NCBI GenBank assembly: GCA_001770655.1
Contig: MERQ01000001.1
Coordinates: forward strand, 32,739 to 96,738
Origin: Betaproteobacteria bacterium RIFCSPLOWO2_12_FULL_68_20
GTDB lineage: Bacteria; Pseudomonadota; Gammaproteobacteria; Burkholderiales; SG8-39
Reading direction: 5' to 3'
DNA length: 64,000 bases
In this document: in pieces, positions 1,673 to 51,149 of the stretch
Position numbering within the stretch: position 1 is the first letter of the stretch
Layout of the letters: every line of letters starts with the position of its first letter
Notes under the pieces: model-generated
The model's input: the letters and a program-made list of their open reading frames with translations, nothing else
Databases searched by the model: none
Told to the model about the DNA's origin: nothing
Made by a program: the position numbers and the translations under genes

Positions 1673-1682
1673 CTAGCGCGAA

Positions 1683-1747
1683 AGGCACGGGAAATCACGA
1701 GATCGGACAAAAAACGAATGCCACGAATTTCCGACTCGGGACACTAG
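1683..1747. repeat. variant or partial copy of the intergenic hairpin-repeat family; its right end embeds the stop codon of the minus-strand GT4 gene
   Basis: GGCACGGGAAATCACGAGATCGGACAAAAAACG resembles the right end of the 171-bp repeat (GCGCGGAAATGACGAGATCGGATAAAAGCG). The terminal CTCGGGACACTAG (1735-1747) is identical to 16889-16901. Confidence 0.5.
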
Positions 1748-3006: not shown

Positions 3007-4689
3007 ATGACCCTCCGCCTGCCCGACCGTGCGTCGTGGTTTCTTCTCTGGTGCCTGCTCGGCGCGGGAGCCGTCCAGCTGTATCTCGCCGGCCCGCTGC
3101 AGCCCGCGCCGTCCGGGTTCAGCGCGATTTTCTGGTATCTCCTCAAATCGCTCGATCCGGCGAGCAACGTGCTTCTCCTCGTGCTCGCCGTCGTCGCCTT
3201 CGCGTTGCGCGACCGCCCCGGGTGGCAGCCGGTCCTGCGCTTCGCCGGATCGCGACCGCTTGCCGTGGCGACCGCCGTTTTCGTGCTTCTCAGCCTCGGC
3301 GCGCTGCTCGCCTACCGCGGGCGGCCGCTCAGCATGGACGAGTATAGCGCCGTGTTCCAGGCGAAGGCTTTCGCGGCGGGGCGGCTCTCCGGCGAGCTGC
3401 CGGTCGAGTTGCTCGACCGGCTCGTTCCGCGCGGCTTCCAGGGCCTTTTCATCACCGTGTCGCGCGCGACTGGCGAGGCGGCTTCGACCTACTGGCCCAC
3501 GTTCTCTCTGCTGCTTGCGCCGTTCGAGCGGTTCGGCGCGTCTTGGGCGCTCAACCCGGTGCTCGGGTCGCTCAGCCTCCTCGCGATCCATCGGCTTGCC
3601 AAGCGCGTTTCCGGCTCGCAGGAGGCAGGCGCGTGGGCGATGCTGTTCACGCTCGCCTCGCCGGCCTTCGTCGTGAACGCGATGTCGTACTACGCGATGA
3701 CCGCGCACCTCCTTGCGAACGCCGTCTTCGCGCTGCTGCTCGTCGATGCGACGCCGAGGCGCGCGCTCGCTGCCGGGTTCGTCGGCGCGCTCGCCCTCAC
3801 GCTCCACAATCCCCTGCCGCACCTGCTGTTCGCCGTGCCCTTCATCGTATGGCTCGCTGCGCGCGGCGGCTCGCTCCGCCTCCTCGCATGCCTCGCCGTC
3901 GGCTACCTTTCGGTCGGACTTTCCGTCGGACTGGGCTGGAAAATGTTCCTGAAGGCGCTGGCGAGCGCGGACAGCGGCGCCGCGCAGGCGATCGTCCCGT
4001 CGCAGGGCGCCGCCGCAGGCATCGTGAAGCTGGCGGCGGACCAGCTGGCGATCTTCGCGCCGCCCACGCTGCAGGTGCTGCAGGCGCGCATCTACGGGCT
4101 GACCAAGCTCTGGACCTGGGCCGCTGCGGGCCTCGTGGTCCTGGCGCTCTGGGGCTATTGGCTCACGCGCCATCGCACCGAGGTGCGCGTGCTCGCGCTC
4201 GCGCTTGTCGCCACCTTCGTCGGCTATCTTTTCATCCGCTTCGACCAGGGGCATGGCTGGGGCTTCCGCTACCTGCATTCGGCGTGGTTCGTCCTGCCCT
4301 TGCTGGCCGCGCTGGCGCTCACCGCGATGCCGCGCGACAAGCTGCCGGGGTCGAATGCCGGCCTGCACGGCATGGCAGGCTGGTGCCTGGTGCTCTCGCT
4401 CGTGCTCGCGAATGCGCTGCGCATCTTCCAGGTGGACACTTTCGTGCGCGCGCATCTCGGCCAGGTGCCGCCGCTTGCGAGCGGGGAAGCTGCGCGCGTG
4501 CCGAGCGTGGTGTTCGTCGACGCGTCGCGCGGCTTCTACGCCTACGACCTGGTCCAGAATCATCCGCTGCTGCGCGAGAGCCCGGTCGTCATGCTCGGCC
4601 GGGATTCGGACGGGCTGATGGCGCGGCACTTTCCCGGCTATGTCCGAGTCGCCTCCGGGCAGTGGGGCGAACACTGGGTGAAGAAATGA
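3007..4689 (+). CDS. polytopic membrane glycosyltransferase, GT-C fold (ArnT/PMT_2-like)
   Basis: 560 aa with many hydrophobic helices. The early loop motif RPLSMDEYSAVFQAKAF resembles the DE..Y motif of ArnT/PMT-type enzymes. Its stop overlaps the start of the next GT2 (ATGA 4686-4689). Confidence 0.6.
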   Translation: MTLRLPDRASWFLLWCLLGAGAVQLYLAGPLQPAPSGFSAIFWYLLKSLDPASNVLLLVLAVVAFALRDRPGWQPVLRFAGSRPLAVATAVFVLLSLGALLAYRGRPLSMDEYSAVFQAKAFAAGRLSGELPVELLDRLVPRGFQGLFITVSRATGEAASTYWPTFSLLLAPFERFGASWALNPVLGSLSLLAIHRLAKRVSGSQEAGAWAMLFTLASPAFVVNAMSYYAMTAHLLANAVFALLLVDATPRRALAAGFVGALALTLHNPLPHLLFAVPFIVWLAARGGSLRLLACLAVGYLSVGLSVGLGWKMFLKALASADSGAAQAIVPSQGAAAGIVKLAADQLAIFAPPTLQVLQARIYGLTKLWTWAAAGLVVLALWGYWLTRHRTEVRVLALALVATFVGYLFIRFDQGHGWGFRYLHSAWFVLPLLAALALTAMPRDKLPGSNAGLHGMAGWCLVLSLVLANALRIFQVDTFVRAHLGQVPPLASGEAARVPSVVFVDASRGFYAYDLVQNHPLLRESPVVMLGRDSDGLMARHFPGYVRVASGQWGEHWVKK

Positions 4690-5891
4690 GCGATGTGCGC
4701 CGCGGCGTCGCCACCGACCCGGACGTATCGGTCGTGTTGCCGTGCCTGAATGAGGAGGAGACGCTCGCCCATTGCGTCGGGCAGGCGCAGCGCGCCTTCG
4801 CCGCGCTCGGCGTGCGCGGGCAGGTGGTGGTGGCGGACAACGGTTCGACCGATCGTTCGGCCGAGATCGCGCGGCGCCTTGGCGCCAAGGTGGTGCGCGA
4901 GCCCGTGCGCGGCTATGGCGCGGCGCTGATGGCCGGTTTCGAGGCGGCGGACGCCGAATTCATCGTCATGGGGGACGCCGACGGCTCGTACGACTTCGGC
5001 TCGATCGGCCCCTTCCTCGACAAGCTGCGCAGCGGCTACGACCTCGTGCTCGGCAACCGATTCGCCGGAGGCATCCGCAAAGGCGCCATGTCGGTGCTGC
5101 ACCGCTATTTCGGCAACCCGGTGCTGTCCTTCCTTGGGCGCTCCATCTCCCGCGCGCCGGTGGGCGACTTCCATTGCGGCCTGCGCGCGCTCTCCAAGAC
5201 CGCCTACCGCAGCATGGGCCTGCGCACGCGCGGCATGGAGTTCGCCACCGAGATGGTGGTGGCCGCGGCCAAGCAGGGCTTGCGGATCACCGAAGTTCCC
5301 ACCGTGCTGCATCCCGACCGCCGCAGCCGTCCGCCTCATCTGCGCTCGTTCCGCGACGGCTGGCGGCATCTGCGCTTCATCGTGACCTGCGCCCCCGACC
5401 ACGTGTATGCCGTGCCAGGCGTCGTGCTTTTCCTCGCCGGCATGGTGCTGCAGACCGCGCTCGTCGCCGGCCCGATCGACGTGGGCGGCATGACGCTCGG
5501 CATCCATTTCGTCGCGCTCGGCGGGCTGCTCGCGCTGGTGGGCGTGAACATCCTCATGCTCGGAGTGCTCGCCAAGCTCGCCATCGCGCAGATGTACCCG
5601 AACCTCAGCAGCCGGACGGCGCGCTGGGTCCTCACGCGCTTCCGCCTGGAATGGGGGCTCGCCGCCGGCACCGTGCTCATCCTGCTCGGCGCCGCAGTCG
5701 ACGTCGTGATCTTCGTGCGCTGGGTGGGCTCCGGCCGCGGGCCGCTCGACGATACCGTTCACGCGGCGTTCGTCGCCACGACGGCCATGGTGATCGGCAT
5801 CAGCCTGATATTCTTTGCGTTTCTGCTCAACCTGTTCCGCCTCGCCGACCGCGAGCGCGAGGCGGCACCGGCCCGGGAGCCGAGAACATGA
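4686..5891 (+). CDS. polyprenyl-phosphate glycosyltransferase, GT2 with C-terminal membrane helices (ArnC/GtrB/DPM1-like)
   Basis: Motifs VSVVLPCLNEEETL, VVADNGSTDRS and IVMGDADGSYDF (DxD), followed by about 4 hydrophobic helices. Confidence 0.8.
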   Translation: MSDVRRGVATDPDVSVVLPCLNEEETLAHCVGQAQRAFAALGVRGQVVVADNGSTDRSAEIARRLGAKVVREPVRGYGAALMAGFEAADAEFIVMGDADGSYDFGSIGPFLDKLRSGYDLVLGNRFAGGIRKGAMSVLHRYFGNPVLSFLGRSISRAPVGDFHCGLRALSKTAYRSMGLRTRGMEFATEMVVAAAKQGLRITEVPTVLHPDRRSRPPHLRSFRDGWRHLRFIVTCAPDHVYAVPGVVLFLAGMVLQTALVAGPIDVGGMTLGIHFVALGGLLALVGVNILMLGVLAKLAIAQMYPNLSSRTARWVLTRFRLEWGLAAGTVLILLGAAVDVVIFVRWVGSGRGPLDDTVHAAFVATTAMVIGISLIFFAFLLNLFRLADREREAAPAREPRT

Positions 5892-9231: not shown

Positions 9232-10419
9232 GTGCGCATCGGCGTTTACTCGGGCGACTTTCCGCCCACGGAAGGCGGCGGGCATACGTTCGTCTCCACC
9301 GTGCTCGATGCCTTCTTCGACGCGGCACCCTCCAGCGATCACGAGTTCGTCGCGTTCTGCGAGCCCGGCCAGCGCGAGGCGCTCGCGCAGCGCTGCACGG
9401 AGGCACGCGTCGAGCTCGCGATGCTCCCGTCCCACACCGCGCTCGGCATGGGGATCGCGACGCTCCGGCATTACGCGCCCTTCGCCTATCTCCTGCGCCG
9501 ATGGCCCGGCCGGCTGGAGCGCACGGGGCGCGAGCGCGGCGTCCAGGCCGTGTGGTTCGTTCCCGGGCTCGCCCACGACGCCCTCGACATTCCATACGTC
9601 GGAACCGTCTGGGATCTCCAGCATCGGCTGCATCCCTGGTTTCCCGAGGTCTGTTCGGACGGATACTGGGAGCACCGGGAGCTCGTCTACAGCCGCTTCG
9701 TGCGCCGGGCGACGCACCTCGTGACCGGCACGCGCGTCGGCGCGGAGCAGCTGAGCCGGCTCTACGGCGTTGCGCCCGAGCGGATCAGCGTGCTGCCGCA
9801 GCCCGCGCCGCGCGTCCTTGCGCAAGCCGAGCCGTCTCAGGCCGTGGCGGCCCTCGGCGCCGAGCGCTTCTTCCTCTATCCCGCGCAATTCTGGCCGCAC
9901 AAGAATCATGTCAACCTGCTGCACGCGCTGAAGCTGCTCGAGGAGCGGCATGGCGAGCGCTTGAGCCTCGTTCTTCCCGGCGCAGACAAGGGCAACGCGG
10001 CGCACGTCAGACGAACGTCGGAGGCGCTCGGCCTCGCCGCGCGAGTGCATTTGCCCGGCTTCGTCAGCGCGGCGGATCTCGCATGGCTCTATCGCCGCGC
10101 GGCCGCGCTTGTCTATCCGTCCTTCAACGGCCCGGACAACCTGCCGCCGCTCGAGGCATTCGCGCACGGCTGCCCGGTCGTGCTCGCCGAGTATCCCGGC
10201 GCGAGAGAGCAGGCGGGCGATGCCGCGCTGTTCTTCGATCCGCGCGATCCCGGGGAGCTGGCGGCGAAGCTCGCGTCGCTTCTGCGGGATGCGCCGCTCG
10301 CGCAGGAGCTCGCGCGTCGCGGCCGCGAGCGCGCGGCGCGCTGGACGGCCCACGACTACGTGCGCGGAATATTCGGCGTCCTAGACGCGCTCGAGCCGAT
10401 CCGGCGCTGCTGGCCCTAG
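9232..10419 (+). CDS. glycosyltransferase family 4
   Basis: GTG start preceded by GAGGAGG. VRIGVYSGDFPPTEGGGHTF; C-terminal LVYPSFNGPDNLPPLEAFAHGCPVVLAE. Confidence 0.8.
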   Translation: MRIGVYSGDFPPTEGGGHTFVSTVLDAFFDAAPSSDHEFVAFCEPGQREALAQRCTEARVELAMLPSHTALGMGIATLRHYAPFAYLLRRWPGRLERTGRERGVQAVWFVPGLAHDALDIPYVGTVWDLQHRLHPWFPEVCSDGYWEHRELVYSRFVRRATHLVTGTRVGAEQLSRLYGVAPERISVLPQPAPRVLAQAEPSQAVAALGAERFFLYPAQFWPHKNHVNLLHALKLLEERHGERLSLVLPGADKGNAAHVRRTSEALGLAARVHLPGFVSAADLAWLYRRAAALVYPSFNGPDNLPPLEAFAHGCPVVLAEYPGAREQAGDAALFFDPRDPGELAAKLASLLRDAPLAQELARRGRERAARWTAHDYVRGIFGVLDALEPIRRCWP

Positions 10420-16846: not shown

Positions 16847-16901
16847 CTAGTGTCCCGAGATCGAACAAAAGCGTTCAGACATTTCTGACTCGGGACACTA
16901 G
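16847..16901. repeat. 13-bp perfect inverted repeat (CTAGTGTCCCGAG ... CTCGGGACACTAG) with a 29-nt spacer; a variant of the hairpin-repeat family and a candidate terminator
   Basis: Arms at 16847-16859 and 16889-16901. The right arm contains the epimerase stop codon. The interior GAGATCGAACAAAAGCG matches GAGATCGGACAAAAAACG at 1699-1716. Confidence 0.6.
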
Positions 16902-25880: not shown

Positions 25881-27329
25881 ATGCGCTGGATGGCATATTT
25901 GGGCGCTCTTCTGGCGGCCGCCGCGTCGAATGTCTCGGGGCAGCAGCTGCCGGACCTGGGCGGAGCGAGCGACGCGGCTCTTCCCTACCAGCTCGAACGG
26001 CGCATCGGCGAGAGCATCATGCGGGAGGTCCGCGCCCGCGAGGCGTCCTACCTGGACGATCCGGAGATCGCCGCTTATCTCGGCGACCTGGGGGCGCGGC
26101 TGGCGCAGGCAACCCCCGGCGCGCGCCAGGACTTCGAGTTCTTCGCGGTGCGCGACCCGGCCGTGAACGCGTTCGCGCTGCCCGGCGGCTTCGTCGGCGT
26201 GCACTCCGGCCTGGTGACTACTGCGGAAACCGAATCGGAGCTCGCTTCGGTGCTCGCGCACGAGATCGCGCACGTCTCGCAGCGCCACATCGCGCGCATG
26301 ATCGCCCAGGAGAAGCAGATGCAGCTGCCGTCGATGATCGCGCTCGCGGCCGCCATCCTGCTCGGAGCCTCGCGCCCGGACCTCGCGGTGGGCGCCGCCG
26401 CCGCCGCCCAGGGAGTGCCGATACAGCAGCAACTCGGCTACTCGCGCGACTTCGAGCGCGAAGCCGACCGCGTCGGCCTGCAGGCGCTCTCGGGCGCCGG
26501 GTTCGACGCGCGCGCGATGTCGGTGTTCTTCGAGAAGCTGCAGCGCGCGACGCGCGTCAGCGACGACGGCAGCGTGCCCGGCTACCTGCGCACCCACCCG
26601 CTGACCACCGAGCGCATCGCCGACATGCAGAACCGCGCGGCGAGCCTGCCTTACCGCCAGCGCCTCGACAGCCTGGAATTCCACCTGGTGCGCGCCAAGC
26701 TGCGCGCCGAATCGCGCGATGCGCGCGACGCGGTGGCTCAATTCGAGTCCGCGGTGCGCGACCAGCGCTACGCGAGCGAAGCGGCGGCGCGCTACGGGCT
26801 GGTGACCGCGCTCGTCCGCGCGCGTCGCGCGCGCGAAGCCGAGGCCGAGCTATCCAAGCTGCGCGCGACGCGCGCGGCGAGCCCGATGCTCGAGACGCTC
26901 GCCGCGCGCGTGCGCCAGGCGCTCGGCGACAGCCAGGGCGCGCTCGCGATCCTCGCCGAGGCGAAGGCCCGTTATTCATACTGGCGGCCGCTCGCGTACG
27001 CGCAGGTCTCGGCGCTGCTCGACGCCGGGCGCAACGGCGAGGCGCTCGCGGCGCTCCAGGAGCCCCTGCGGCTCGATCCGCGCGATGCGCGGCTCTACGC
27101 GCTGCAGGCGAAGACCTACGCGGTGCTGGGGAAGCGCCTGCTGCAGCACCAGGCGCAGGCCGAGGCGTACGCGCTGCAGGGCAGCCTTCCCGCCGCGATC
27201 GAGCAGCTGCAGCTCGCCCAGTCCGCGGGCGACGGAGACTTCTACCAGCTCTCCGTGGTCGAGGCGCGCCTGAAGGACCTGCGCGGCCGCCACGCGCAGG
27301 AACTGCGCGACGAGCGGGGCCGGCGCTAG
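25881..27329 (+). CDS. bepA: periplasmic M48 metalloprotease with C-terminal TPR region (BepA/YfgC-like)
   Basis: Signal peptide [16 protein letters not shown], zinc motif HEIAHV, and a TPR-like helical C-terminal half. 482 aa. Confidence 0.7.
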
Positions 27330-27340
27330 CACGACTGTGC

Positions 27341-27511
27341 TTTCGGTTTTCTCCGATCTCGTCATTTCCGCGCCTTTTGTCTTTGCGGAAATGACGAGAC
27401 CTTGGTGCCGTCGCATAGCGAAGGCGCTCGCAGAGAAGCGACCGCCCCAAGGTCTCGCGACTTCCGGAAAAGAAAAGGCCCGGAAGTCGCGAGATCGATG
27501 AAAGGCAAACC
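27341..27511 (-). repeat. 171-bp double-hairpin intergenic repeat, copy A (inverted relative to copies B and C)
   Basis: Two perfect 15-bp stems: TCTCGTCATTTCCGC/GCGGAAATGACGAGA (27357-27399) and TCTCGCGACTTCCGG/CCGGAAGTCGCGAGA (27453-27494). An 11-bp outer stem CGAGACCTTGG/CCAAGGTCTCG is also present. It fills the gap between two convergent stop codons. Confidence 0.9.
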
Positions 27512-27514
27512 GGT

Positions 27515-28483
27515 CTACCGCTTCGCCGGCTCGCAGTAAGCTTCGTACAGCAGGTCGAAGGTCATTTCCGCCTCGCCGAGAAGCTCGTCCTCGCCCGCCG
27601 AGCGGCGCAGCGCCCCCTGCAGCAGCGTCTGCACGCCCGCCGCCTCGGGAACCGGCGCACCGCGCGCCTCCAGGAAGTGCACGATGCCGCCGATTTTCCC
27701 GAGCGCGAGATTCTTCGCCATGTCGAGCCGAGCGAGCATCTCCTCGAAGGTCACGCGGGTCGCGCTGTTGGCGAAACGCGCTCCGTCGAAGGCGAAGCCG
27801 ACGGCGCCCGAAGGCACGTCCTGGGTCTTGTCGAGCCACACCAGCGTCGCCTCGGGATCCACGAAGCGCCGGATCAGCCAGGCGCACGCCAGCCGGTCGG
27901 CCCACAGGGGTTTGCGCGTCGCCCAGGTGCGCCCGAGGAGCTTCTCGCCGGGCCCGATCGCGGCCTGGGTCTGCGCCGGGAACAGGAGCTTGCGCACCGC
28001 GGCTTCCGCCTCGGCGAGCGCCTCGCGCGCGCGATCGCGCGCCGCGGTCGGAAAGAAATCGAGCGCCGTGATGGCCTCGAAATCGCGCCGCTGCTTGTGC
28101 AGCACGCGCGAGATCGCGCCCGGATCGGACACGCCGTAGCCGACGCGCAGGCTTACCACGGTCTTCACCAGCTCCTGGTAGCGCGCCGTGCGGTCGAACA
28201 GCTTCCTCAGGGCCTCCTGCTGCGCCGGGGAGGTCGCGTCTGCGAGCAGCATGTGGGCGCTCCCGGCGCCCTTGGCGACGTATTCGGACAGGCTCTCGAG
28301 CGCCCGCCGGTTCATCGGCGTGTCCGGCAGCACGTACACGCCCTCGCGCATCACCGCGGCGCCCAGCGACTCCAGCGTGCGCAGCACCTTCATCCTGCTT
28401 GCCGGGTCGTCGGTCGGCAGTGCCGCGACGCACAACAGCCAGCGGCTCGCCGGATCGCGCTGATCGGCAGGTGTTCTTGGCAC
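27515..28483 (-). CDS. ChrB-family protein (chromate-resistance regulator-like)
   Basis: WLLCVAALPTDDPASRMKVLRTLESLGAAVMREGVYVLP and TWATRKPLWADRLACAWLIRRFVDPEA match the two ChrB domains as recalled. The GTG start at 28483 is inferred. Confidence 0.75.
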   Translation of the reverse strand: MPRTPADQRDPASRWLLCVAALPTDDPASRMKVLRTLESLGAAVMREGVYVLPDTPMNRRALESLSEYVAKGAGSAHMLLADATSPAQQEALRKLFDRTARYQELVKTVVSLRVGYGVSDPGAISRVLHKQRRDFEAITALDFFPTAARDRAREALAEAEAAVRKLLFPAQTQAAIGPGEKLLGRTWATRKPLWADRLACAWLIRRFVDPEATLVWLDKTQDVPSGAVGFAFDGARFANSATRVTFEEMLARLDMAKNLALGKIGGIVHFLEARGAPVPEAAGVQTLLQGALRRSAGEDELLGEAEMTFDLLYEAYCEPAKR

Positions 28484-32911: not shown

Positions 32912-33427
32912 GTGAGAATCTGCATCGTCTCGGATAGCCACGACCGCGCCGATGCGCTCGGTCGCGCCGTGCGCGAAGCGGCCGCGCAGGGTGCTCAGGC
33001 GGTGATCCACTGCGGCGACCTCATCGGCACGCAGACGCTGCGCCCGGCAATGGACGCCGGGCTCCCGATCCACGTCATCCACGGCAACAACCTGGGCGAC
33101 CCCAACTCGCTTTCGCGATGGGCGCACGAGAGCGGCGGCCGGCTGCGCTACCACGGCGCCGACGCCCGCGTCGAGCTCGGCGGACGGCGTATCTTCGTGG
33201 TGCACTACCCGGAGTACGGCTACGGCATGGCCTGCACGGGGGACTGGGATCTCGTGTGCTGCGGGCACTCGCATCACGCGGCCGTCGAGCGCGTGGCGAA
33301 CGTCAAGGGCGGTGCCACCTGGCTCGTCAACCCCGGGACGGTCGCGGGCCTTGCGGCGCCCGCAACCTGGATGCTGGGCGATCTTGCGGCGATGCGCTTC
33401 GAGATCCGCGAGCTCGGCACAGCCTAG
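32912..33427 (+). CDS. YfcE/MJ0936-family metallophosphoesterase
   Basis: MRICIVSDSHDR, HCGDL, GNN, CCGHSHH. The GTG start lies 21 nt after the aprA stop. Confidence 0.75.
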   Translation: MRICIVSDSHDRADALGRAVREAAAQGAQAVIHCGDLIGTQTLRPAMDAGLPIHVIHGNNLGDPNSLSRWAHESGGRLRYHGADARVELGGRRIFVVHYPEYGYGMACTGDWDLVCCGHSHHAAVERVANVKGGATWLVNPGTVAGLAAPATWMLGDLAAMRFEIRELGTA

Positions 33428-33520
33428 AAGCAGCTGATCAAGGACTGACTCTGTCGTCGTCCCCGCGCAAGCGGGGAACCGTTCTCGAGAACCCCGCCCG
33501 GGAAATCGCGCGGGGTTTTT
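33428..33520 (+). repeat. left copy of a ~93-bp direct repeat (aprA-like gene tail + CRISPR-repeat-like hairpin + terminator)
   Basis: AAGCAGCTGATCAAGGACTGA... aligns with 34997-35090 with about 5 mismatches. It starts at the first base after the phosphoesterase TAG. Confidence 0.9.
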
Positions 33521-34861: not shown

Positions 34862-35017
34862 CGCGAGGAAACCCGCTACCCGGGCTTCTACTACCGGATG
34901 GACAAGAACTACATCGACGACGAGAACTGGAAGTGCTTCGTCAACTCGACCTACGACCGCAACACGCACCAGTGGGCGCTGAAGAAGGTGCCGTACAAGC
35001 AGCTGATCAAGGACTGA
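34862..35017 (+). pseudogene. aprA: 3' fragment (about 52 codons) of a second, divergent aprA
   Basis: REETRYPGFYYRMDKNYIDDENWKCFVNSTYDRNTHQWALKKVPYKQLIKD aligns with the intact AprA tail RKETRWPGYYYRGDYPKLDDNEWHCFTGSEYDPRSREWKMSKLPVHRIV. Confidence 0.75.
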
Positions 35018-35090
35018 CCCCGTCGTCGTCCCCGCGCAAGCGGGGAACCGTTCTCGAGAGCCCCGCCCCGGAAATCGCGCGGGGTGTTTT
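34997..35090 (+). repeat. right copy of the ~93-bp direct repeat
   Basis: Aligns with 33428-33520. It includes hairpin GTCGTCCCCGCGCAAGCGGGGAACCG (35025-35050) and a GC stem plus T-run (35061-35090). Confidence 0.9.
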
Positions 35091-38371: not shown

Positions 38372-40282
38372 ATGTCCCCGCGCCCGCCCGGCGTTTCGAC
38401 GGCGAAAATCGGCTGGAAGGGCGGCAGCCCCGACATCCGGGGGCTGCTCGGGCGCATGCTGCAGTTGCGCGGCGCCGTCACGCGCGCCGGGAGCGCGTTG
38501 CTGCGCGGCTGGCGGCCGCAGCTGCGCCGGCCGGGGTACTTCGCGAGCGCGGCGAACCTCGCAGCCTATATCGGGCTCAGGCGCCACGATCTGCGCGCGC
38601 TCCAGGGCATTCTCGCGACCCTCGGCCTTTCCTCGCTCGGCCGCAGCGAGGGCCACGTGAGGGCGACGCTCGACGCGGTGATCCACGCGCTCAAGCGCAT
38701 GACCGGGGCACGCGTGGCGCGCCAGGAGATCGCGCGCGTCGCGCTCGCCATGGGCCGCGACCAGGTGCTGCTGCAGCGGCACACCAACCAGCTGTTCGGC
38801 CCGCCGCCGGCGAAGCGCTGGACGCGCTTCATGGTGACGCTGCCAACCGAGGCCGCCTCGGACTACGCCTTCGTGCGCGAGCTCGTCAGGCACGGCATGG
38901 ACTGCGCGCGCATCAACTGCGCGCACGACGGCGACGCGGCGTGGGGCGCGATGATCCGCAACGTCAGGCGCGCCGCGCGCGAAACCGGCCGCGCCTGCCG
39001 CGTGCTGATGGACCTGGGCGGGCCGAAGCTACGCACCGGGCCGGTGAAGGCGGGCGAGGCGCTGCTTCGCGTCAAGGTCGGGCGCGATGCGCGCGGCAAG
39101 CTCGTTTCTCCGGCGCGGATCGTCCTCGACGCCTCGGGCAAGGAGGCGCCGGCTGCGCCCGCGGGCAAGGCCGCGCCGGGCGCGCCGATCCGGCTCGCGG
39201 TCGAGCGCGCCTGGCTGGACCGGGTGAAGGCCGGCGATGCGATCCGCTTCACCGACATGCGGGGGCGCGAGCGGCGCCTCACAATCGACAAGCGCCTGAA
39301 CGCGCACCGCGCGGTCGGGGCGCTGGCAAAGGGCGCGTGGATCGGCGAGACGCTGAACCTCGAGCGCATGCCGAGGCGCGGCGCGCATTGCGCCTGCGCG
39401 GCGCGCTGCGCGATCGCGCCTCCGCCGCTCGCGATCCGCGTCGAGCGGGGCGACACGCTTCTCCTCACGCGCGAGCCGGCGCCGGGCGAGCCCAGGCGCA
39501 CCGACCGCCGCGGCAAGTCGGTCGCGCCGGCGCGCATCTCCTGCAGCGAGCCCGCCGTATTCGGCGCGCTCAAGGTCGGGCACCGCGTCTGGATCGACGA
39601 CGGCAAGGTCGGCGCTGTGGTCGAGGCGCTGGACGAGCACGGCGCGTGGCTGCACGTCACCCACTCGCGCGAGGGCGGCGAGCGCATCGCCGCGGAAAAG
39701 GGCCTCAATTTCCCGGACACCGCCCTGCCGCTGCCGGCGCTGTCGCCCTCCGATCTCGCCGACCTCGATTTCGTGGCGCGGCACGCCGAGCTCGTCGGCT
39801 TCTCGTTCGTGCGCGGCGCCGCCGACATGGACCGGCTGGCCGAGGAGCTGGCGCGGCGCGGCCGCGAGGACGCGGGCATCATCGCCAAGATCGAGACCTA
39901 CGAGGCGGTGAGGAACCTGCCCGAGATCATCGTGCACGGCGCCGGGAGGCACCCGTTCGGCGTGATGATCGCGCGCGGCGACCTGGCGGTGGAGATCGGC
40001 TACGAGCGGCTGGCCGAGATCCAGGAGGAGATCCTGTGGCTGTGCGAGGCGGCGCACGTGCCGGTGGTCTGGGCGACCCAGGTGCTGGAAGGACTGGTGA
40101 AGCGCGGCCGGCCTTCGCGCGCCGAGATCACCGACGCGGCGTTGTCGCAGCGCGCGGAGTGCGTGATGCTGAACAAGGGCCCGTACCTGCTGCAGGCGCT
40201 CGAAGTGCTGGACAACGTGGTCGCGCGCATGCGCGCGCACCAGCGCAAGAAGACCGCGCAGTACCGGGCGCTGCACTGGTAG
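38372..40282 (+). CDS. pyruvate-kinase-family protein, atypical (long N-terminal extension, no C-terminal regulatory domain)
   Basis: PK barrel motifs GMDCARINCAHD, VLMDLGGPKLRTG, IIAKIETYEAV and VMIARGDLAVEIG...RPSRAEITDAA. 636 aa. Confidence 0.65.
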   Translation: MSPRPPGVSTAKIGWKGGSPDIRGLLGRMLQLRGAVTRAGSALLRGWRPQLRRPGYFASAANLAAYIGLRRHDLRALQGILATLGLSSLGRSEGHVRATLDAVIHALKRMTGARVARQEIARVALAMGRDQVLLQRHTNQLFGPPPAKRWTRFMVTLPTEAASDYAFVRELVRHGMDCARINCAHDGDAAWGAMIRNVRRAARETGRACRVLMDLGGPKLRTGPVKAGEALLRVKVGRDARGKLVSPARIVLDASGKEAPAAPAGKAAPGAPIRLAVERAWLDRVKAGDAIRFTDMRGRERRLTIDKRLNAHRAVGALAKGAWIGETLNLERMPRRGAHCACAARCAIAPPPLAIRVERGDTLLLTREPAPGEPRRTDRRGKSVAPARISCSEPAVFGALKVGHRVWIDDGKVGAVVEALDEHGAWLHVTHSREGGERIAAEKGLNFPDTALPLPALSPSDLADLDFVARHAELVGFSFVRGAADMDRLAEELARRGREDAGIIAKIETYEAVRNLPEIIVHGAGRHPFGVMIARGDLAVEIGYERLAEIQEEILWLCEAAHVPVVWATQVLEGLVKRGRPSRAEITDAALSQRAECVMLNKGPYLLQALEVLDNVVARMRAHQRKKTAQYRALHW

Positions 40283-40293
40283 ACGCGGTACTT

Positions 40294-40465
40294 GGTTCTT
40301 TCGCCTTTCATCGATCTCGCGACTTCCGGGCCTTTTCTTTTCCGGAAGTCGCGAGACATCGGGGCGGTCGCATTTCTGCGGACGCCTTCGCTATGCCGAG
40401 GCACCAATGTCTCGTCATTTCCGCAAAAACAAAAGGCGCGGAAATGACGAGATCGTGGAAACCCC
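40294..40465 (+). repeat. 171-bp double-hairpin intergenic repeat, copy B
   Basis: Roughly 9 in 10 positions are identical to the reverse complement of copy A by eye, with the same two 15-bp stems. It lies between convergent stops at 40282 and 40492. Confidence 0.9.
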
Positions 40466-40491
40466 AAAAAACCCAACGACACCGAAAACCG

Positions 40492-42009
40492 TTACTTCTT
40501 CTTCGCCTTCTTCGCCTCCTTGGCGACGCGATCGAGCGCGTCCTCGACCGCCTGGGTGAGCGTCTTCAGCACCTTGAGCCGCGCGTGGTACTTGTTGTTG
40601 GCCTCGACCAGCGTCCAGGGCGCGTTCGCGGTCGAGGTGCGGTCCACCATGTCGCACACCGCGGTCTCGTAGGCGTCCCACTTCTTGCGGTTGCGCCAAT
40701 CCTCCTCGGTGATCTTGAAGCGCTTGAACGAGGTTTTCTCGCGCGCCTTGAAGCGCTTGAACTGCTCGTCCTTGCCGATGGCGAGCCAGAATTTCATCAC
40801 CACCACGCCGTGGCGAAGCAGCGCGCCCTCGAAGTCGTTGATCTCGGTGTAGGCGCGCATCCAGTCGGCTTCCTTGCAGAAGCCCTCGACGCGCTCGACC
40901 AGCACGCGCCCGTACCAGGAACGATCGAAGAACACGAAGCGGCCGCGCCGCGGGATGTGGCGCCAGAAGCGCCACAGATACGGCTGCGCGCGCTCCTCCT
41001 CGGTCGGCGCCGCCACCGGAACGTTGAAGTAGCTGCGCGCATCGAGCGCGCTGGTGACGCGCCGCACCGCGCCGCCCTTGCCGGCGGCGTCGTTGCCCTC
41101 GAAGACGCACGCCACCGAGATGTTCCTGAAATTCGGGTCGCGCGAAGCGAGGTTCAGGCGCCCCTGCCACTTCTGCAGCTGCTTCTGGTATTCGGGCTTG
41201 GTGATCGGCTGGTCGAGCTGGAGCGCGCGCAGCACGTTGGTGCTGTTGGCCGACGAAAGCAGCGGCGGATTCCTGTCCGGAAGCTGCTTGACCGGCTTCT
41301 CGTCCAGGCGCTCGCGCATCGCGGCGAGCAGGTGCTTGCCCGCGGTGAGCGCGCGGTAGCGCGCGTCCGCGCCCGGCACCACGATCCACGGCGCCTCGCC
41401 CGTGGAGGTGCGCCGCAGGAACGGCTCGCACACGCGGATGAACTTCTTGTAGACCTTGAAGTACTCCCACTCGCGCTCGGTCACGCGCCAGCGCGTCGCG
41501 GGGTCCTTTTCCAGCGACTTGAGACGCTTCTTCTGCTGGGACTTGGAGAGGTGGAACCAGTACTTGAGCAGCAGCACGCCCTCGTCGGTGAGCATCTTCT
41601 CCAGCCGCACCACCTCGTGGATCGCGTGCCCGAACTCGCCCTCGCTGATCAGGCCCTGCACGCGCTGGATGATCGGCATGGTGTGCCAGGCGCCGAAGAA
41701 GATGCCGATCTTGCCTTTGGGCGGCAGCGCCCTCCAGAAGCGCCACAGCGCCGGCCGCTCGCGCTCCTCGTCGGAAGGCTCGAAGAACGCATGCGTGTAG
41801 ATGTGCCGGGGGTCCATCCACTCGTTGAGCAGGTTCACCGCCTCTCCCTTGCCGGCGCCCTCGACGCCGGCAATGAGGATCAGCACCGGAAACCGGCCGT
41901 GCTGGTTGAGGTCGAATTGCGCGTTGAGCAGCGCCTCGCGCAGCTTGGGCATCTCGCGCAGATAAGCCGCCTTGTCGACGCGGTGATCGAGATTGGCCGA
42001 TTCGAACAT
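40492..42009 (-). CDS. pap: polyphosphate:AMP phosphotransferase (two-domain PPK2)
   Basis: Two PPK2 modules with P-loops GVEGAGKGE and GNDAAGKGG, and repeated WRFW motifs. The start could be ATG 42009 or ATG 42060. Confidence 0.8.
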   Translation of the reverse strand: MFESANLDHRVDKAAYLREMPKLREALLNAQFDLNQHGRFPVLILIAGVEGAGKGEAVNLLNEWMDPRHIYTHAFFEPSDEERERPALWRFWRALPPKGKIGIFFGAWHTMPIIQRVQGLISEGEFGHAIHEVVRLEKMLTDEGVLLLKYWFHLSKSQQKKRLKSLEKDPATRWRVTEREWEYFKVYKKFIRVCEPFLRRTSTGEAPWIVVPGADARYRALTAGKHLLAAMRERLDEKPVKQLPDRNPPLLSSANSTNVLRALQLDQPITKPEYQKQLQKWQGRLNLASRDPNFRNISVACVFEGNDAAGKGGAVRRVTSALDARSYFNVPVAAPTEEERAQPYLWRFWRHIPRRGRFVFFDRSWYGRVLVERVEGFCKEADWMRAYTEINDFEGALLRHGVVVMKFWLAIGKDEQFKRFKAREKTSFKRFKITEEDWRNRKKWDAYETAVCDMVDRTSTANAPWTLVEANNKYHARLKVLKTLTQAVEDALDRVAKEAKKAKKK

Positions 42010-49498: not shown

Positions 49499-50581
49499 GT
49501 GGCCGCGATCCGCACCCTGGAGCGCTACCTCGCCGCGCAGATCTACGGCGCGGTCGTCTTCGTGCTGGTGGGATTCCTCGCGCTGTTCGCGTTCTTCGAC
49601 CTGATCCGGGAGCTCGGCGATCTCGGCAAGGGCGACTATCAGTTGCGGCAGGTGTTCACCTTCGTGCTGCTGTCGGTGCCGGCGCACGCCTACGAGCTGT
49701 TCCCGGTGGTGGTGCTGATCGGCACGCTCTACGTGCTGGCTCATCTGGCGAGCAATTCCGAATACACGGTGATGCGCGGCTCGGGGCTGTCGCCCCGCCA
49801 GGCGGGCTGGGCGCTCGCCAAGATCGGGGTGGCGTTCGTGGTGGCGACCTTCGTCATCGGCGAATGGATCGCGCCGGTGGCGGAACAGGCAGCGCAGAAG
49901 GTGCGCCTGCGCGCGATGAGCTCGCTCATCGGGCAGGACCTCGACTCCGGGCTGTGGTTCAAGGACGAGCGCTCGTTCATCAACGTGCGCGAGGCGCGCC
50001 AGGCGAACTCGCTCGCCGGCGTGCGCATCTACGAGTTCGACGCCGCCTACCGCCTGCGCACGGTGCGCACTGCCGAGCGCGGCGAGTACCGGGGCGAGGG
50101 GCTGTGGGCGCTGACCGGCGTGGTGCAGACGCGGTTCACCCCCGGCGGCCCGCAGACCACGCGCGTTGCGGAGGCCGATTGGCGCAGCGCGATCACCCCG
50201 GACATGCTGGACGTCCTGATCGTGGCCCCGGACCGCATGTCGGCGTGGCGGCTGTACAAGTACATTCAGCACCTGGCGGAGAACCGCCAGAAGACCGAGC
50301 GCTACGAGATCGCGCTGTGGAAGAAGCTGTTCTATCCGCTCGCGACGCTGATCATGATGGCGCTCGCGCTGCCGTTCGCCTACATCCAGGCGCGCGCCGG
50401 CATGGTCGGCGTCAAGGTGTTCCTCGGCATCATGCTCGGCATCTTCTTCCACATGCTGAACAGCCTGTTCTCGCACGTCGGGCTGCTGCAGAACTGGCCG
50501 CCGATCAGCGCCGCGGCGCTGCCCAGCGCGGCGTTCTTCCTCGCGGCGCTGGCGATGATGTGGTGGGTGGAGCGTAGGTAG
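49499..50581 (+). CDS. lptG: LPS export ABC permease LptG
   Basis: GTG start. LERYLAAQIYGAVVFVLVGFLALFAFFDLIRELGDLG. 360 aa. Confidence 0.85.
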   Translation: MAAIRTLERYLAAQIYGAVVFVLVGFLALFAFFDLIRELGDLGKGDYQLRQVFTFVLLSVPAHAYELFPVVVLIGTLYVLAHLASNSEYTVMRGSGLSPRQAGWALAKIGVAFVVATFVIGEWIAPVAEQAAQKVRLRAMSSLIGQDLDSGLWFKDERSFINVREARQANSLAGVRIYEFDAAYRLRTVRTAERGEYRGEGLWALTGVVQTRFTPGGPQTTRVAEADWRSAITPDMLDVLIVAPDRMSAWRLYKYIQHLAENRQKTERYEIALWKKLFYPLATLIMMALALPFAYIQARAGMVGVKVFLGIMLGIFFHMLNSLFSHVGLLQNWPPISAAALPSAAFFLAALAMMWWVERR

Positions 50582-50753
50582 GGTTTTCGCTTTTCTACGA
50601 TCTCGCGATTTCCCGCGCCTCTTGCCTTTGCGGGAAATCGCGAGACATTGGTGCGATCGCGTTTGGCAAACGCCTCAGCTATGCGACGGCCTCAATGTCT
50701 CGTCATTTCCGCAAAAGAAAAGACGCGGAAATGACGAGATCGGATAAAAGCGC
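50582..50753 (+). repeat. 171-bp double-hairpin intergenic repeat, copy C (divergent, with compensatory stem changes)
   Basis: TCTCGCGATTTCCCGC/GCGGGAAATCGCGAGA and TCTCGTCATTTCCGC/GCGGAAATGACGAGA. It starts at the base after the lptG stop and ends 6 nt before the convergent RDD-gene stop. Confidence 0.9.
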
Positions 50754-50759
50754 AATAAC

Positions 50760-51149
50760 CTACACCATCACCAGCCGCGTGCCGGCAAGCCGATCGTGCA
50801 GGAACATCCGCTCGCGATCGAACAAGGCCCACACGAGCGAGATCCCTGTGGGCACGAGGATCGCCGCGAGCGCGAGGCGCACGAGCGCCGTGCGCGGCGT
50901 CGCGCCCTGCAGCCGGATGCGCCAGGCCTTCATGGCGAGCGTCTGCCCGCCGCGCAGCCAGCACCACAGGAAATAGGCGGCAAACGCCGCGGCGATGAAC
51001 AGCTGCAGCGCGTGGCGAATCCACCCGAGCGTGGCGTCGCGCCCGCCGCTCGCGAAAAAGAATACCCAGGCGGCGAAGAAGGCGACCGCGGCGAGCAGTA
51101 GCGCCTCGTAGAGCATGCTTGCAAGGCGCCGCGCCAGGCCGGGCGTCAC
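50760..51149 (-). CDS. RDD family membrane protein
   Basis: RRLASMLYEALLLAAVAFFAAWVFFF ... GQTLAMKAWRIRL. The GTG start overlaps the upstream stop. Confidence 0.65.
   Translation of the reverse strand: MTPGLARRLASMLYEALLLAAVAFFAAWVFFFASGGRDATLGWIRHALQLFIAAAFAAYFLWCWLRGGQTLAMKAWRIRLQGATPRTALVRLALAAILVPTGISLVWALFDRERMFLHDRLAGTRLVMV

What the first reader, a model, noticed from the sequence alone, without database searches (positions are those of the whole stretch)
27341..27511. Family of ~171-bp double-hairpin repeats filling convergent gene junctions (copies at 27341-27511, 40294-40465 and 50582-50753)
Seen: there are three full copies in 64 kb. Copy A is the reverse complement of B, with roughly 9 in 10 positions identical by eye; C is more divergent. 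Each has two long perfect stems: TCTCGCGACTTCCGG/CCGGAAGTCGCGAGA and TCTCGTCATTTCCGC/GCGGAAATGACGAGA. An outer stem (CGAGACCTTGG/CCAAGGTCTCG in A) closes the central ~45 nt. The ends are similar in inverted orientation (..TTTTC..CGATCTCG / CGAGATCG..AAAA..). All three sit exactly between convergent stop codons: bepA-like/chrB-like, PK-like/pap, and lptG/RDD gene. The other convergent pairs in the window have no intergenic space, apart from the 1673-1743 junction, which holds a variant copy. No ORF is associated. Inference: a high-copy REP/BIME- or MITE-like element that doubles as a bidirectional terminator, or a structured small RNA family.
Basis: partly seen in the sequence, partly recalled or inferred. 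Interest (0 to 1): 0.65.

Follow-up and report, generated by a model that had tools for sequence, protein, structure and literature searches.

The report
Transposon relics wedged between converging genes
The three ~180-bp double-hairpin repeats are old copies of a small non-coding transposon (a MITE of the IS630/Tc1-mariner type) that inserted into the "TA" of overlapping stop codons of converging genes and rebuilt both stops; this is a tidy but essentially ordinary kind of bacterial junk DNA.

Summary
A (27329-27515), B (40282-40492) and C (50581-50760) are copies of one family. Each has two perfect 15-17-bp hairpins and fills a convergent junction exactly. Two truncated relatives sit at 1673-1747 and 16847-16901.

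The family occurs on about 60 metagenome contigs. Many copies there are a longer ~220-bp form. Its outer inverted repeat (CTAGTGTCCCGAGTCAGAAAT) matches the ends of annotated IS630-family insertion sequences in Cupriavidus and Rhodococcus, which always sit between CTAG...CTAG.

Relatives without the element show empty sites. ChrB/BepA and LptG/RDD overlap by a shared CTAG. In the window lineage the element lies in that TA, the TA is duplicated, and the G...C termini restore TAG for both genes.

CTAG is about 8-fold depleted in the window, and 15 of 22 occurrences are at stop codons. This explains the placement.

Long-form copies are 99-100% alike, so they moved recently. The window's short forms are 87-92% alike, lack the IS630 repeat, and are fixed in two sister species. 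They evolve by patchy gene conversion.

There is no Rfam match, no U-tract terminator and no strand bias. A terminator or sRNA role is unproven.

Verdict: a new MITE family of a known kind.

The parts
27329..27515 (-). Copy A (short form, 187 bp), reverse orientation relative to B. It is flanked by the duplicated TA at 27327-27328 and 27516-27517. Its hairpins are at 27357-27399 and 27453-27494. The first base G completes the BepA-like stop TAG (27327-27329). The last base C completes the ChrB stop (CTA 27515-27517).
   Evidence: Sequence. Repeat. Empty CTAG site in relatives L084 and L085 against the occupied site in L070 and the window. Orthologue in the sister species.
40282..40492 (+). Copy B (short form, 211 bp) between the pyruvate kinase stop TAG (40280-40282) and the PAP stop (TTA 40492-40494). 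It is flanked by TA at 40280-40281 and 40493-40494. Its hairpins are at 40315-40356 and 40410-40452. The last base is T here and C in the sister species.
   Evidence: No empty site was available, so the TA duplication is inferred by analogy with A and C.
50581..50760 (+). Copy C (short form, 180 bp) between the LptG stop TAG (50579-50581) and the RDD-protein stop (CTA 50760-50762). It is flanked by TA at 50579-50580 and 50761-50762. Its hairpins are at 50601-50645 and 50698-50739.
   Evidence: Empty shared-CTAG site at the LptG/RDD junction of relative L086.
1673..1747 (+). Remnant D: CTAG, then the loop and 3' arm of the second hairpin, then the right IS630-type terminal repeat ending GGGACACTAG. 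The terminal CTA (1744-1746) is the stop of the minus-strand glycosyltransferase gene.
16847..16901 (.). Remnant E: a 55-bp internally deleted long form, CTAGTGTCCCGAG/ATCGAACAAAAGCG...ATTTCTGACTCGGGACACTAG. Its terminal CTA (16898-16900) is the stop of the minus-strand epimerase gene. It lies in a tandem junction.
   Evidence: Present in all same-species assemblies.
10416..10419 (.). Unoccupied target-type site: a CTAG shared by the stop codons of two convergent genes (4-nt overlap).

Best explanation
[quoted passage not shown] They were moved by a DDE transposase of the IS630/Tc1-mariner family supplied in trans.

The full, recently active form is about 220 bp. It has an IS630-type terminal inverted repeat of about 27 bp at each end. 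Inside these lie T-rich subterminal segments, two perfect 15-17-bp hairpin modules in inverted orientation, and an asymmetric centre of about 50 bp.

Integration is into the TA of CTAG. The TA is duplicated, and the element's terminal bases G...C turn each TA back into TAG when read inwards. In this 69% G+C genome CTAG is rare and lies mostly at stop codons. In particular it occurs where two convergent genes overlap by CTAG. Insertions therefore land exactly between convergent genes and leave both reading frames intact.

The window's A, B and C are old, fixed copies that no longer carry the IS630-type repeat. They have most likely lost it by decay or deletion and are now immobile. This step is an inference.

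Their hairpin modules stay perfectly palindromic because whole modules are exchanged between copies by gene conversion. Possibly hairpin DNA or RNA is also tolerated or useful there.

Any effect on transcription (a hairpin roadblock or 3'-end protection for both converging mRNAs) would be a by-product. It is not shown.
For: Shown:
1. The family is real and dispersed. There are 63 metagenome loci and 44 full copies (34 distinct), with an orientation-specific centre.
2. Many copies carry outer repeats CTAGTGTCCYGAGTCMGAAAT...CTAG.
3. These 21-27 nt match the ends of annotated IS630-family ISs. One is Cupriavidus sp. KK10 p1 (L069:2501-3669, 24/25 identical over the aligned 25 nt). Another is on Rhodococcus jostii pRHL3 (L068, transposase WP_011600393.1). 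The transposase carries HTH and DDE_3 domains and is widespread in Burkholderiales.
4. Six independent copies of a related IS are each flanked by CTAG...CTAG.
5. Empty sites exist. In relatives L084 and L085, ChrB and BepA share ...GCG CTAG CGC.... In the window lineage the same codons read ...GCGG TA[G...187 bp...C]TA GCGCC. At LptG/RDD, relative L086 has ...CGCCG CTAG GCG... and the window has ...AGG TA[G...C]TA CACC, with both proteins ending at the same residue.
6. Stop codons next to copies are TAG in 46 of 61 cases against 119 of 331 elsewhere (p = 1e-8). In 19 of 32 IS630-type termini the terminal TAG is a gene's stop.
7. CTAG occurs 22 times in the window against 185 expected, and 15 of the 22 are at stops.
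8. Long-form copies at different loci are 98.6-100% identical. The nearest neighbours of short forms are only 87-92% identical, and the two forms are intermixed in the core tree.
9. A and remnant E are present in every same-species assembly. A, B and C are all present in the sister species.
10. The hairpins covary: 97% of cells are paired, 16 pairs show double changes, and 0 of 500 shuffles reach this. There is almost no G-U.
11. Orthologous copies differ by replacement of whole modules with compensated stems.

From the literature: IS630-family elements cut and paste into TA and duplicate it, and IS630 prefers CTAG (PMC2170065, citing Tenzen & Ohtsubo 1991).
Against: - A, B and C lack the IS630-type terminal repeat. 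Their ends (G, then 0-20 variable nt, then GGTTTTCGCYTTTCATCGATCTCG) are similar across many loci. This could mean that the short form is a mobile unit of its own, recognised by another enzyme.
- No transposase gene of this type was found in the window or in about 0.5 Mb of fetched loci.
- No empty site was available for B or for any long-form copy.
- The origin of the double-hairpin core is unknown.
- Retention of the core while the ends decay hints at selection that this explanation does not require.
Confidence: 0.75

Rival explanations
1. A REP/REPIN-type element: pairs of REP hairpins in inverted orientation, mobilised as single-stranded DNA by a REP-associated tyrosine transposase (RAYT). 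The IS630-type ends of the long form would be a secondary capture.
For: - Inverted hairpin doublets with a conserved spacer can fold either as two hairpins or as one long hairpin.
- Single modules also occur (L001, L002, L005, L007, L023).
- Short forms have no sharp sequence-defined ends.
- A RAYT-like gene lies 1.9 kb from a copy in L053 (PF01797 at 36.9 bits; NF047646 at 70.7 bits, below its cut-off of 80).
- REP dimers nested in longer palindromes are described (PMC3733652).
Against: - There is no GTAG or CGTC tag at the hairpin foot. Stems of 15-17 bp with 10-14-nt loops lie outside the reported ranges of 5-13 bp.
- A and C show a TA target duplication, which the single-strand RAYT/IS200 mechanism does not make.
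- The L053 RAYT is flanked on both sides by a different repeat, GAGAAAAATGGTGACTGTCMC. That repeat forms its own doublets in L036, L045 and L053 and is absent from the window.
- The only near-identical, recently moved copies are the ones with IS630 ends.
Confidence: 0.1
2. The conserved core is primarily a functional RNA or DNA signal. It could be a bidirectional transcription terminator or insulator, or an mRNA 3'-end stabiliser for convergent genes that otherwise have no spacer. It could also be a small RNA. Transposition would only be its delivery route.
For: - The fold is very stable (z = -7.4 and -6.5 on the two strands).
- The stems are kept perfect through compensatory changes, while the outer repeats decay.
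- The element is the entire spacer at three convergent junctions, whereas other such junctions have -4 to +7 nt.
- At the LptG/RDD junction another relative (L067) carries an unrelated 15-bp hairpin.
- 28 of 44 scored contexts are convergent and nearly all abut a gene's 3' end.
Against: - No T-run follows either hairpin on either strand, and the terminator scan finds none inside the elements. Canonical terminators with T-runs do exist in this genome (33490-33520).
- There is no orientation bias in tandem contexts: about 6 copies in the gene's direction and 3 against.
- Almost no G-U pairs occur, so there is no sign of constraint on one transcribed strand.
- Orthologous copies are 86-87% (A, B) and 96% (C) identical, against 93-97% at third codon positions. 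There is no purifying selection beyond the palindromy.
- Relatives manage with zero spacer at the same junctions.
- The placement is fully explained by CTAG availability.
- There is no Rfam family.
Confidence: 0.12
3. Chance similarity or an assembly artefact.
For: One metagenome contig (L058) is identical to window 27368-28297 and then diverges inside a hairpin loop of copy A. This looks like an assembly chimera at the repeat.
Against: The same three insertions occur in independent assemblies of the species and of a sister species. The family is found in dozens of unrelated contigs. Pattern counts far exceed shuffles.
Confidence: 0.01

Closest known systems
IS630/Tc1-mariner-derived bacterial MITEs, for example Correia elements of Neisseria and RUP of Streptococcus pneumoniae (from my own knowledge; IS630 mechanism from PMC2170065)
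   Same: - Small (about 100-220 bp) and non-coding.
- Terminal inverted repeats like those of an IS630-family IS.
- Insertion into TA with TA duplication.
- Many dispersed copies, mostly intergenic and close to gene ends.
- Can fold into long hairpins.
   Different: - Unrelated in sequence.
- Carries two internal perfect 15-17-bp hairpin modules.
- Strong CTAG and stop-codon placement in a high-G+C genome.
- A large class of copies, including all three in the finding, lacks the terminal repeats.
- The parent IS was seen only in other organisms.
IS630-family insertion sequences of the Cupriavidus/Polaromonas/Thauera/Rhodococcus group (for example NZ_CP073678.1 902.3-907.3 kb; NC_008271.1 with WP_011600393.1)
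   Same: - The terminal 21-27 nt are shared (CTAGTGTCCCGAGTCAGAAATTCGT).
- CTAG flanks both ends.
- The terminal G plus the target TA forms a TAG. In the IS this TAG is the transposase's own stop codon.
   Different: - The IS is 1,169 bp and encodes the transposase (HTH plus DDE_3 domains).
- Nothing inside it resembles the double-hairpin core.
REP/BIME/REPIN elements with RAYT transposases (PMC3733652, PMC3116915)
   Same: - Hairpin modules occur as inverted doublets with a conserved spacer and as singletons.
- Extragenic, often at 3' ends of genes.
- Compensatory stem variation between copies.
   Different: - No GTAG/CGTC tag.
- Longer stems and loops.
- A TA target duplication is present.
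- The RAYT found nearby belongs to another repeat family.
ERIC/IRU elements of enterobacteria (from my own knowledge)
   Same: Imperfect palindromes of about 127 bp in transcribed intergenic regions, able to form long hairpins, and old and largely immobile.
   Different: Unrelated sequence. No twin perfect hairpins. Different host group.

Membership tests
MITE of the IS630/Tc1-mariner superfamily | Short and non-coding | tested here: met
   The units are 180-221 bp. No ORF lies within them, and they sit between the stop codons of flanking genes.
MITE of the IS630/Tc1-mariner superfamily | Terminal inverted repeats matching those of an autonomous IS630-family element | tested here: inconclusive
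   Met for the long form and for window remnants D and E: 24/25 identical to the Cupriavidus IS end over the aligned 25 nt. Not met for window copies A, B and C, whose ends do not resemble it and match no IS end in the plasmid collection.
MITE of the IS630/Tc1-mariner superfamily | Insertion into TA (preferably CTAG) with duplication of TA | tested here: met
   Empty against occupied sites for A and C. Long forms and IS copies are flanked by CTAG...CTAG. The tandem pair in L014 shares one CTAG. B is consistent, but no empty site was found.
MITE of the IS630/Tc1-mariner superfamily | Multiple dispersed copies, some nearly identical (recent transposition) | tested here: met
   Long-form copies in different flanks are 98.6-100% identical. 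Short forms are 87-92% identical.
MITE of the IS630/Tc1-mariner superfamily | Autonomous partner (transposase) in the same genome | not testable with these tools
   Only 64 kb of the genome is held. tblastn found no homologue in the window or in about 0.5 Mb of loci. The transposase subfamily is abundant in metagenomes and Burkholderiales.
REP/REPIN (RAYT-mobilised) | 20-40-nt palindrome with a conserved GTAG or CGTC tag at its foot | tested here: not met
   The invariant foot is GATCTCG.../...CGAGA(T)C. Stems are 15-17 bp and loops 10-14 nt. Family definitions are from PMC3733652.
REP/REPIN (RAYT-mobilised) | Cognate RAYT gene flanked by the same REP | tested here: not met
   The single RAYT-like gene found (L053:1959-2594) is flanked by a different repeat. 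The window's whole genome could not be examined.
REP/REPIN (RAYT-mobilised) | Inverted doublet able to form one long hairpin | tested here: met
   The minus-strand fold pairs the two halves. Doublets spaced about 54 nt apart occur in many loci.
Intrinsic (Rho-independent) terminator | G+C-rich hairpin followed directly by a U-tract | tested here: not met
   No site lies inside A, B or C on either strand. The T-rich tracts lie 5' of the hairpins and in their loops.
Any curated RNA family (Rfam 15) | Match at or above the gathering score | tested here: not met
   There are 0 hits in the window. Only far sub-threshold hairpin matches to miRNA models were found.

The most novel reading that the evidence does not exclude
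The double-hairpin core is not mere cargo. It would be a host-useful module delivered by an IS630-type MITE into zero-spacer convergent junctions. Candidates are a U-tract-independent bidirectional transcription barrier, an mRNA end-protector, or a binding site for a nucleoid or recombination protein. Selection would then keep the core while stripping the transposon ends. This would be a case of serial domestication of a MITE as intergenic punctuation. Alternatively, the core is a REP-like module with its own enzyme, which would make the long form a hybrid of two mobility systems.
Probability: 0.15. Interest if true: 0.6.

Novelty: new member of a known kind. Interest (0 to 1): 0.35.

Why it matters
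The finding gives a clean, base-by-base example of how a transposon's target preference can create a pattern that looks functional.

In a G+C-rich, CTAG-depleted genome the preferred target survives mainly as overlapping stop codons of convergent genes. Insertions therefore pile up exactly there. The element's G...C ends rebuild both stops, so the insertions are nearly harmless.

This is useful for annotating uncultured sulfur-oxidising Burkholderiales. These repeats break assemblies and mimic terminators or sRNAs. It is also a caution against reading function into position alone.

It does not change the understanding of MITEs or of IS630-family transposition.

Tried and rejected
- Rfam at gathering threshold on the whole window and at E-value threshold on copies: nothing real.
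- BLAST of whole short and long elements against 72,556 plasmids: no match. BLAST of the short-form end: only chance hits in genes.
- Scan of viral contigs for the outer repeat: 0 hits.
- Strict hairpin pattern in one genome per species (GTDB): only two hits, both in one Burkholderiales MAG. The family is therefore absent from nearly all representative genomes.
- Full-text search for the element's sequence strings and for IS630-MITE papers in Burkholderiales: nothing relevant.
- Canonical terminator and promoter scans: negative.
- RAYT hypothesis: one RAYT was found, but it belongs to a different repeat.
- Search for empty sites of long-form copies among the fetched loci: none found.
- Presence/absence polymorphism within the species: none, because all assemblies carry A and E.
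- I could not decide whether short forms arose from long forms by loss of ends or the reverse. I favour loss for three reasons: the forms are intermixed in the tree, intermediate decayed ends exist (L042, L041, L027), and short copies also sit in TA/TAG.

Full report
**1. What is in the window**

The three regions were read directly. A (27341-27509) is the reverse complement of B (40300-40468) at 91% over 169 nt. C matches both more weakly.

Each copy has two perfect stems of 15-17 bp with loops of 10-14 nt. The modules face each other in inverted orientation around an asymmetric centre of about 50 nt.

The 16-nt module foot GGAARTSRCGAGATCG occurs seven times exactly in 64 kb. With up to 2 mismatches there are 11 matches against 0.65 expected.

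B folds at -84 kcal/mol (z = -7.4). The opposite strand folds as one long hairpin, with the two halves paired.

The flanking genes are BepA-like M48 protease/ChrB, pyruvate kinase/polyphosphate:AMP phosphotransferase, and LptG/RDD protein. All three pairs are convergent. Other clear convergent pairs in the window are separated by -4, +1 and +7 nt.

A profile search finds two further partial copies, at 1673-1747 and 16847-16901.

**2. The family elsewhere**

Rfam has nothing. A strict hairpin pattern hit only one Burkholderiales MAG among 185,579 representative genomes. A looser pattern hit 63 metagenome contigs.

nhmmer recovered 44 full-length copies, 34 of them distinct. They score much better in one orientation, so the centre is conserved and directional. 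At least nine contigs end inside a copy, as expected of a multi-copy repeat.

The window organism is an uncultured sulfur-oxidising member of the Burkholderiales. It carries sox genes and an apr/sat cluster. Its best-named relatives are 'Burkholderiales bacterium' MAGs.

**3. A longer form with transposon ends**

About half of the metagenome copies carry some 27 extra nt at each end: CTAGTGTCCYGAGTCMGAAAT... and its inverse ...CTAG.

Window remnant D is the right half of such a copy. Remnant E is a 55-bp internal-deletion derivative.

BLAST of the outer repeat against plasmids hit the ends of annotated IS630-family insertion sequences.
- In Cupriavidus sp. KK10 p1 the IS is L069:2501-3669 (1,169 bp). 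Its ends are CTAGTGTCCCGAGTCAGAAAT / ATTTCTGACTCATGACACTAG.
- In Rhodococcus jostii pRHL3 the IS carries transposase WP_011600393.1.

The transposase has HTH and DDE_3 domains. It belongs to a very widespread subfamily found in Cupriavidus, Polaromonas, Thauera and Paraburkholderia.

Six independent insertions of a related IS are each flanked by CTAG on both sides.

IS630-family elements cut and paste into TA and duplicate it, and IS630 itself prefers CTAG (PMC2170065, citing Tenzen & Ohtsubo 1991).

**4. Empty sites**

Two relatives have SoxB 78% identical to the window's. In them, ChrB and the M48 protease overlap by four bases:
- L085: ...GAGCCGGTGAAGCG CTAG CGCTGC...
- L084...GAGCGCGC CTAG CGCCGC....

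In the window lineage the same codons read ...GAGCCGGCGAAGCGG TA [G ACCGGTTTGCC ... CACAGTCGTG C] TA GCGCCGGCC.... Both proteins end at the same residue. Copy A is therefore a 187-bp insertion into the TA of a shared CTAG. The TA is duplicated, and the element's first G and last C complete TAG for each gene.

The same holds for C. Relative L086 has ...GAGCGCCG CTAG GCGTTGAT... with LptG and RDD overlapping by four bases. The window has ...CGTAGG TA [G GGTTTTCGC ... GCAATAAC C] TA CACCATC....

B has the same TA|G...|TA layout. Its last base is C in the sister species and T here, which turns TAG into TAA. No empty site was available for B.

The window itself holds an unoccupied site of this kind at 10416-10419.

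**5. Why between convergent stops**

CTAG occurs 22 times in the window against 185 expected from base composition. Fifteen of the 22 overlap a stop codon of a plausible gene.

Genes that end next to a copy use TAG in 46 of 61 cases, against 119 of 331 elsewhere (Fisher p = 1e-8). In 19 of 32 distinct IS630-type termini, the terminal TAG is the stop of an inward-reading gene.

Of the 44 copies with both neighbours scored, 28 are in convergent junctions, 14 in tandem junctions and 2 (doubtful) in divergent junctions.

Target availability plus the harmlessness of such insertions explains the placement. No function need be invoked.

**6. Age and dynamics**

Long-form copies in different flanks are 98.6-100% identical (for example L012, L014 twice and L016; also L054, L055, L008, L043 and L009). 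Short forms have nearest neighbours at only 87-92%. The two forms are intermixed in a tree of the cores. Decayed intermediates exist in L042, L041 and L027.

Every assembly of the species (99.5-100% identical to the window) carries A and E. The sister species GCA_040961535.1 carries A, B and C. More distant relatives, about 96 kb in all, carry no copy.

Orthologous copies are 86.1% (A), 87.3% (B) and 96.0% (C) identical, against 93-97% at third codon positions. The differences are patchy. One whole hairpin module is replaced by another variant whose stem is already compensated. This points to gene conversion between copies.

I infer that the long form is the active MITE. I also infer that the window's short forms are old copies that lost their terminal repeats and are now fixed. 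The reverse order (an older short element later captured between IS630 ends) is not excluded.

**7. Structure and possible function**

Across 33 copies, 97% of cells in the consensus structure pair. Sixteen pairs show double changes, and none of 500 shuffles reaches that.

The changes are CG, GC and UA swaps with almost no G-U. The palindrome is therefore kept on both DNA strands, and there is no sign of constraint on one transcript.

No T-run follows either hairpin in either direction, and the terminator scan finds nothing inside the elements. Orientation relative to genes in tandem contexts is mixed.

A role as a hairpin barrier or mRNA end-protector cannot be excluded. The core outlives the ends, and another relative has an unrelated 15-bp hairpin at the LptG/RDD junction. 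But relatives function with zero spacer at the same junctions, so such a role is not required.

**8. The REP/RAYT rival**

The doublet-plus-singleton architecture resembles REPINs and REP dimers (PMC3733652). However:
- There is no GTAG/CGTC tag.
- The stems are longer than those reported.
- A TA duplication is present.
- The one RAYT-like gene found (L053:1959-2594; PF01797 at 36.9 bits) is flanked on both sides by a different repeat, GAGAAAAATGGTGACTGTCMC. That repeat forms its own doublets in several loci and is absent from the window.

**9. Verdict**

This is a new family of IS630/Tc1-mariner-type MITEs in an uncultured Burkholderiales lineage.

The three copies in the finding are fixed relics without terminal repeats. 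They sit in the TA of formerly overlapping convergent stop codons.

It is a new member of a known kind. Interest is modest, and lies mainly in the clean demonstration of stop-codon-restoring insertion and in the caution it gives against reading terminator or sRNA function from position and hairpins alone.

Noticed in passing
window 33425-33520 and 34994-35089: A 96-nt direct repeat (94% identical) follows two gene ends. It contains a small hairpin and a canonical terminator (CCCCGC...GCGGGG plus a T-run). Metagenome loci L015 and L040 carry the same sequence directly abutting an element copy whose left end it replaces.
   Followed up: partly
L058 (Ga0209343_10144312) against window 27368-28297: The contig is 100% identical to the window for 930 bp. 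It then diverges in the loop of a hairpin of copy A into unrelated sequence. This is probably an assembly chimera, or an alternative junction, at the repeat.
   Followed up: partly
L053:1959-2594 (minus strand), with repeats at L053:1966-1986, 2638-2658, 3748-3810 and 5083-5160; also L036:2266-2328 and L045:131-193: A RAYT-like Y1 transposase gene is flanked by inverted copies of a second, unrelated repeat (GAGAAAAATGGTGACTGTCMC). This repeat forms perfect 29-nt-arm hairpin doublets elsewhere. It is a separate REPIN-like family in the same communities and is absent from the window.
   Followed up: partly
window, whole; for example 10416-10419: CTAG is about 8-fold under-represented (22 against 185 expected), and TA about 2-fold (728 against 1566). 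Fifteen of the 22 CTAGs are at stop codons, including one shared by two convergent genes.
   Followed up: yes
L068:2501-3595, L078:1501-2586 and other IS copies: The IS630-family transposase reading frame runs through the terminal inverted repeat. It stops at the TAG formed by the element's last base plus the flanking target TA, so the IS depends on its TA target for its own stop codon.
   Followed up: no
L086:1574-1644: In another relative, the same M48/ChrB junction holds a different 65-nt insert flanked by CTAG...CTAG. It has an 8-bp hairpin (GTTCCCGC/GCGGGAAC) and one end reading GGTTTTC. It may be a much-reduced relative of the family or another small TA-inserting element.
   Followed up: no
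L066:11265-14590 against window 50760: The sister species has about 3.3 kb of extra DNA (a PTA_PTB fragment and an FMN oxidoreductase) between the right end of copy C and the RDD gene. The RDD protein is one residue longer there and ends in TAA. This is an indel exactly at the element boundary.
   Followed up: partly
L014:12941-13378: Two long-form copies lie in direct tandem and share a single CTAG. This is as expected if the second copy inserted into the TA duplicated by the first.
   Followed up: partly
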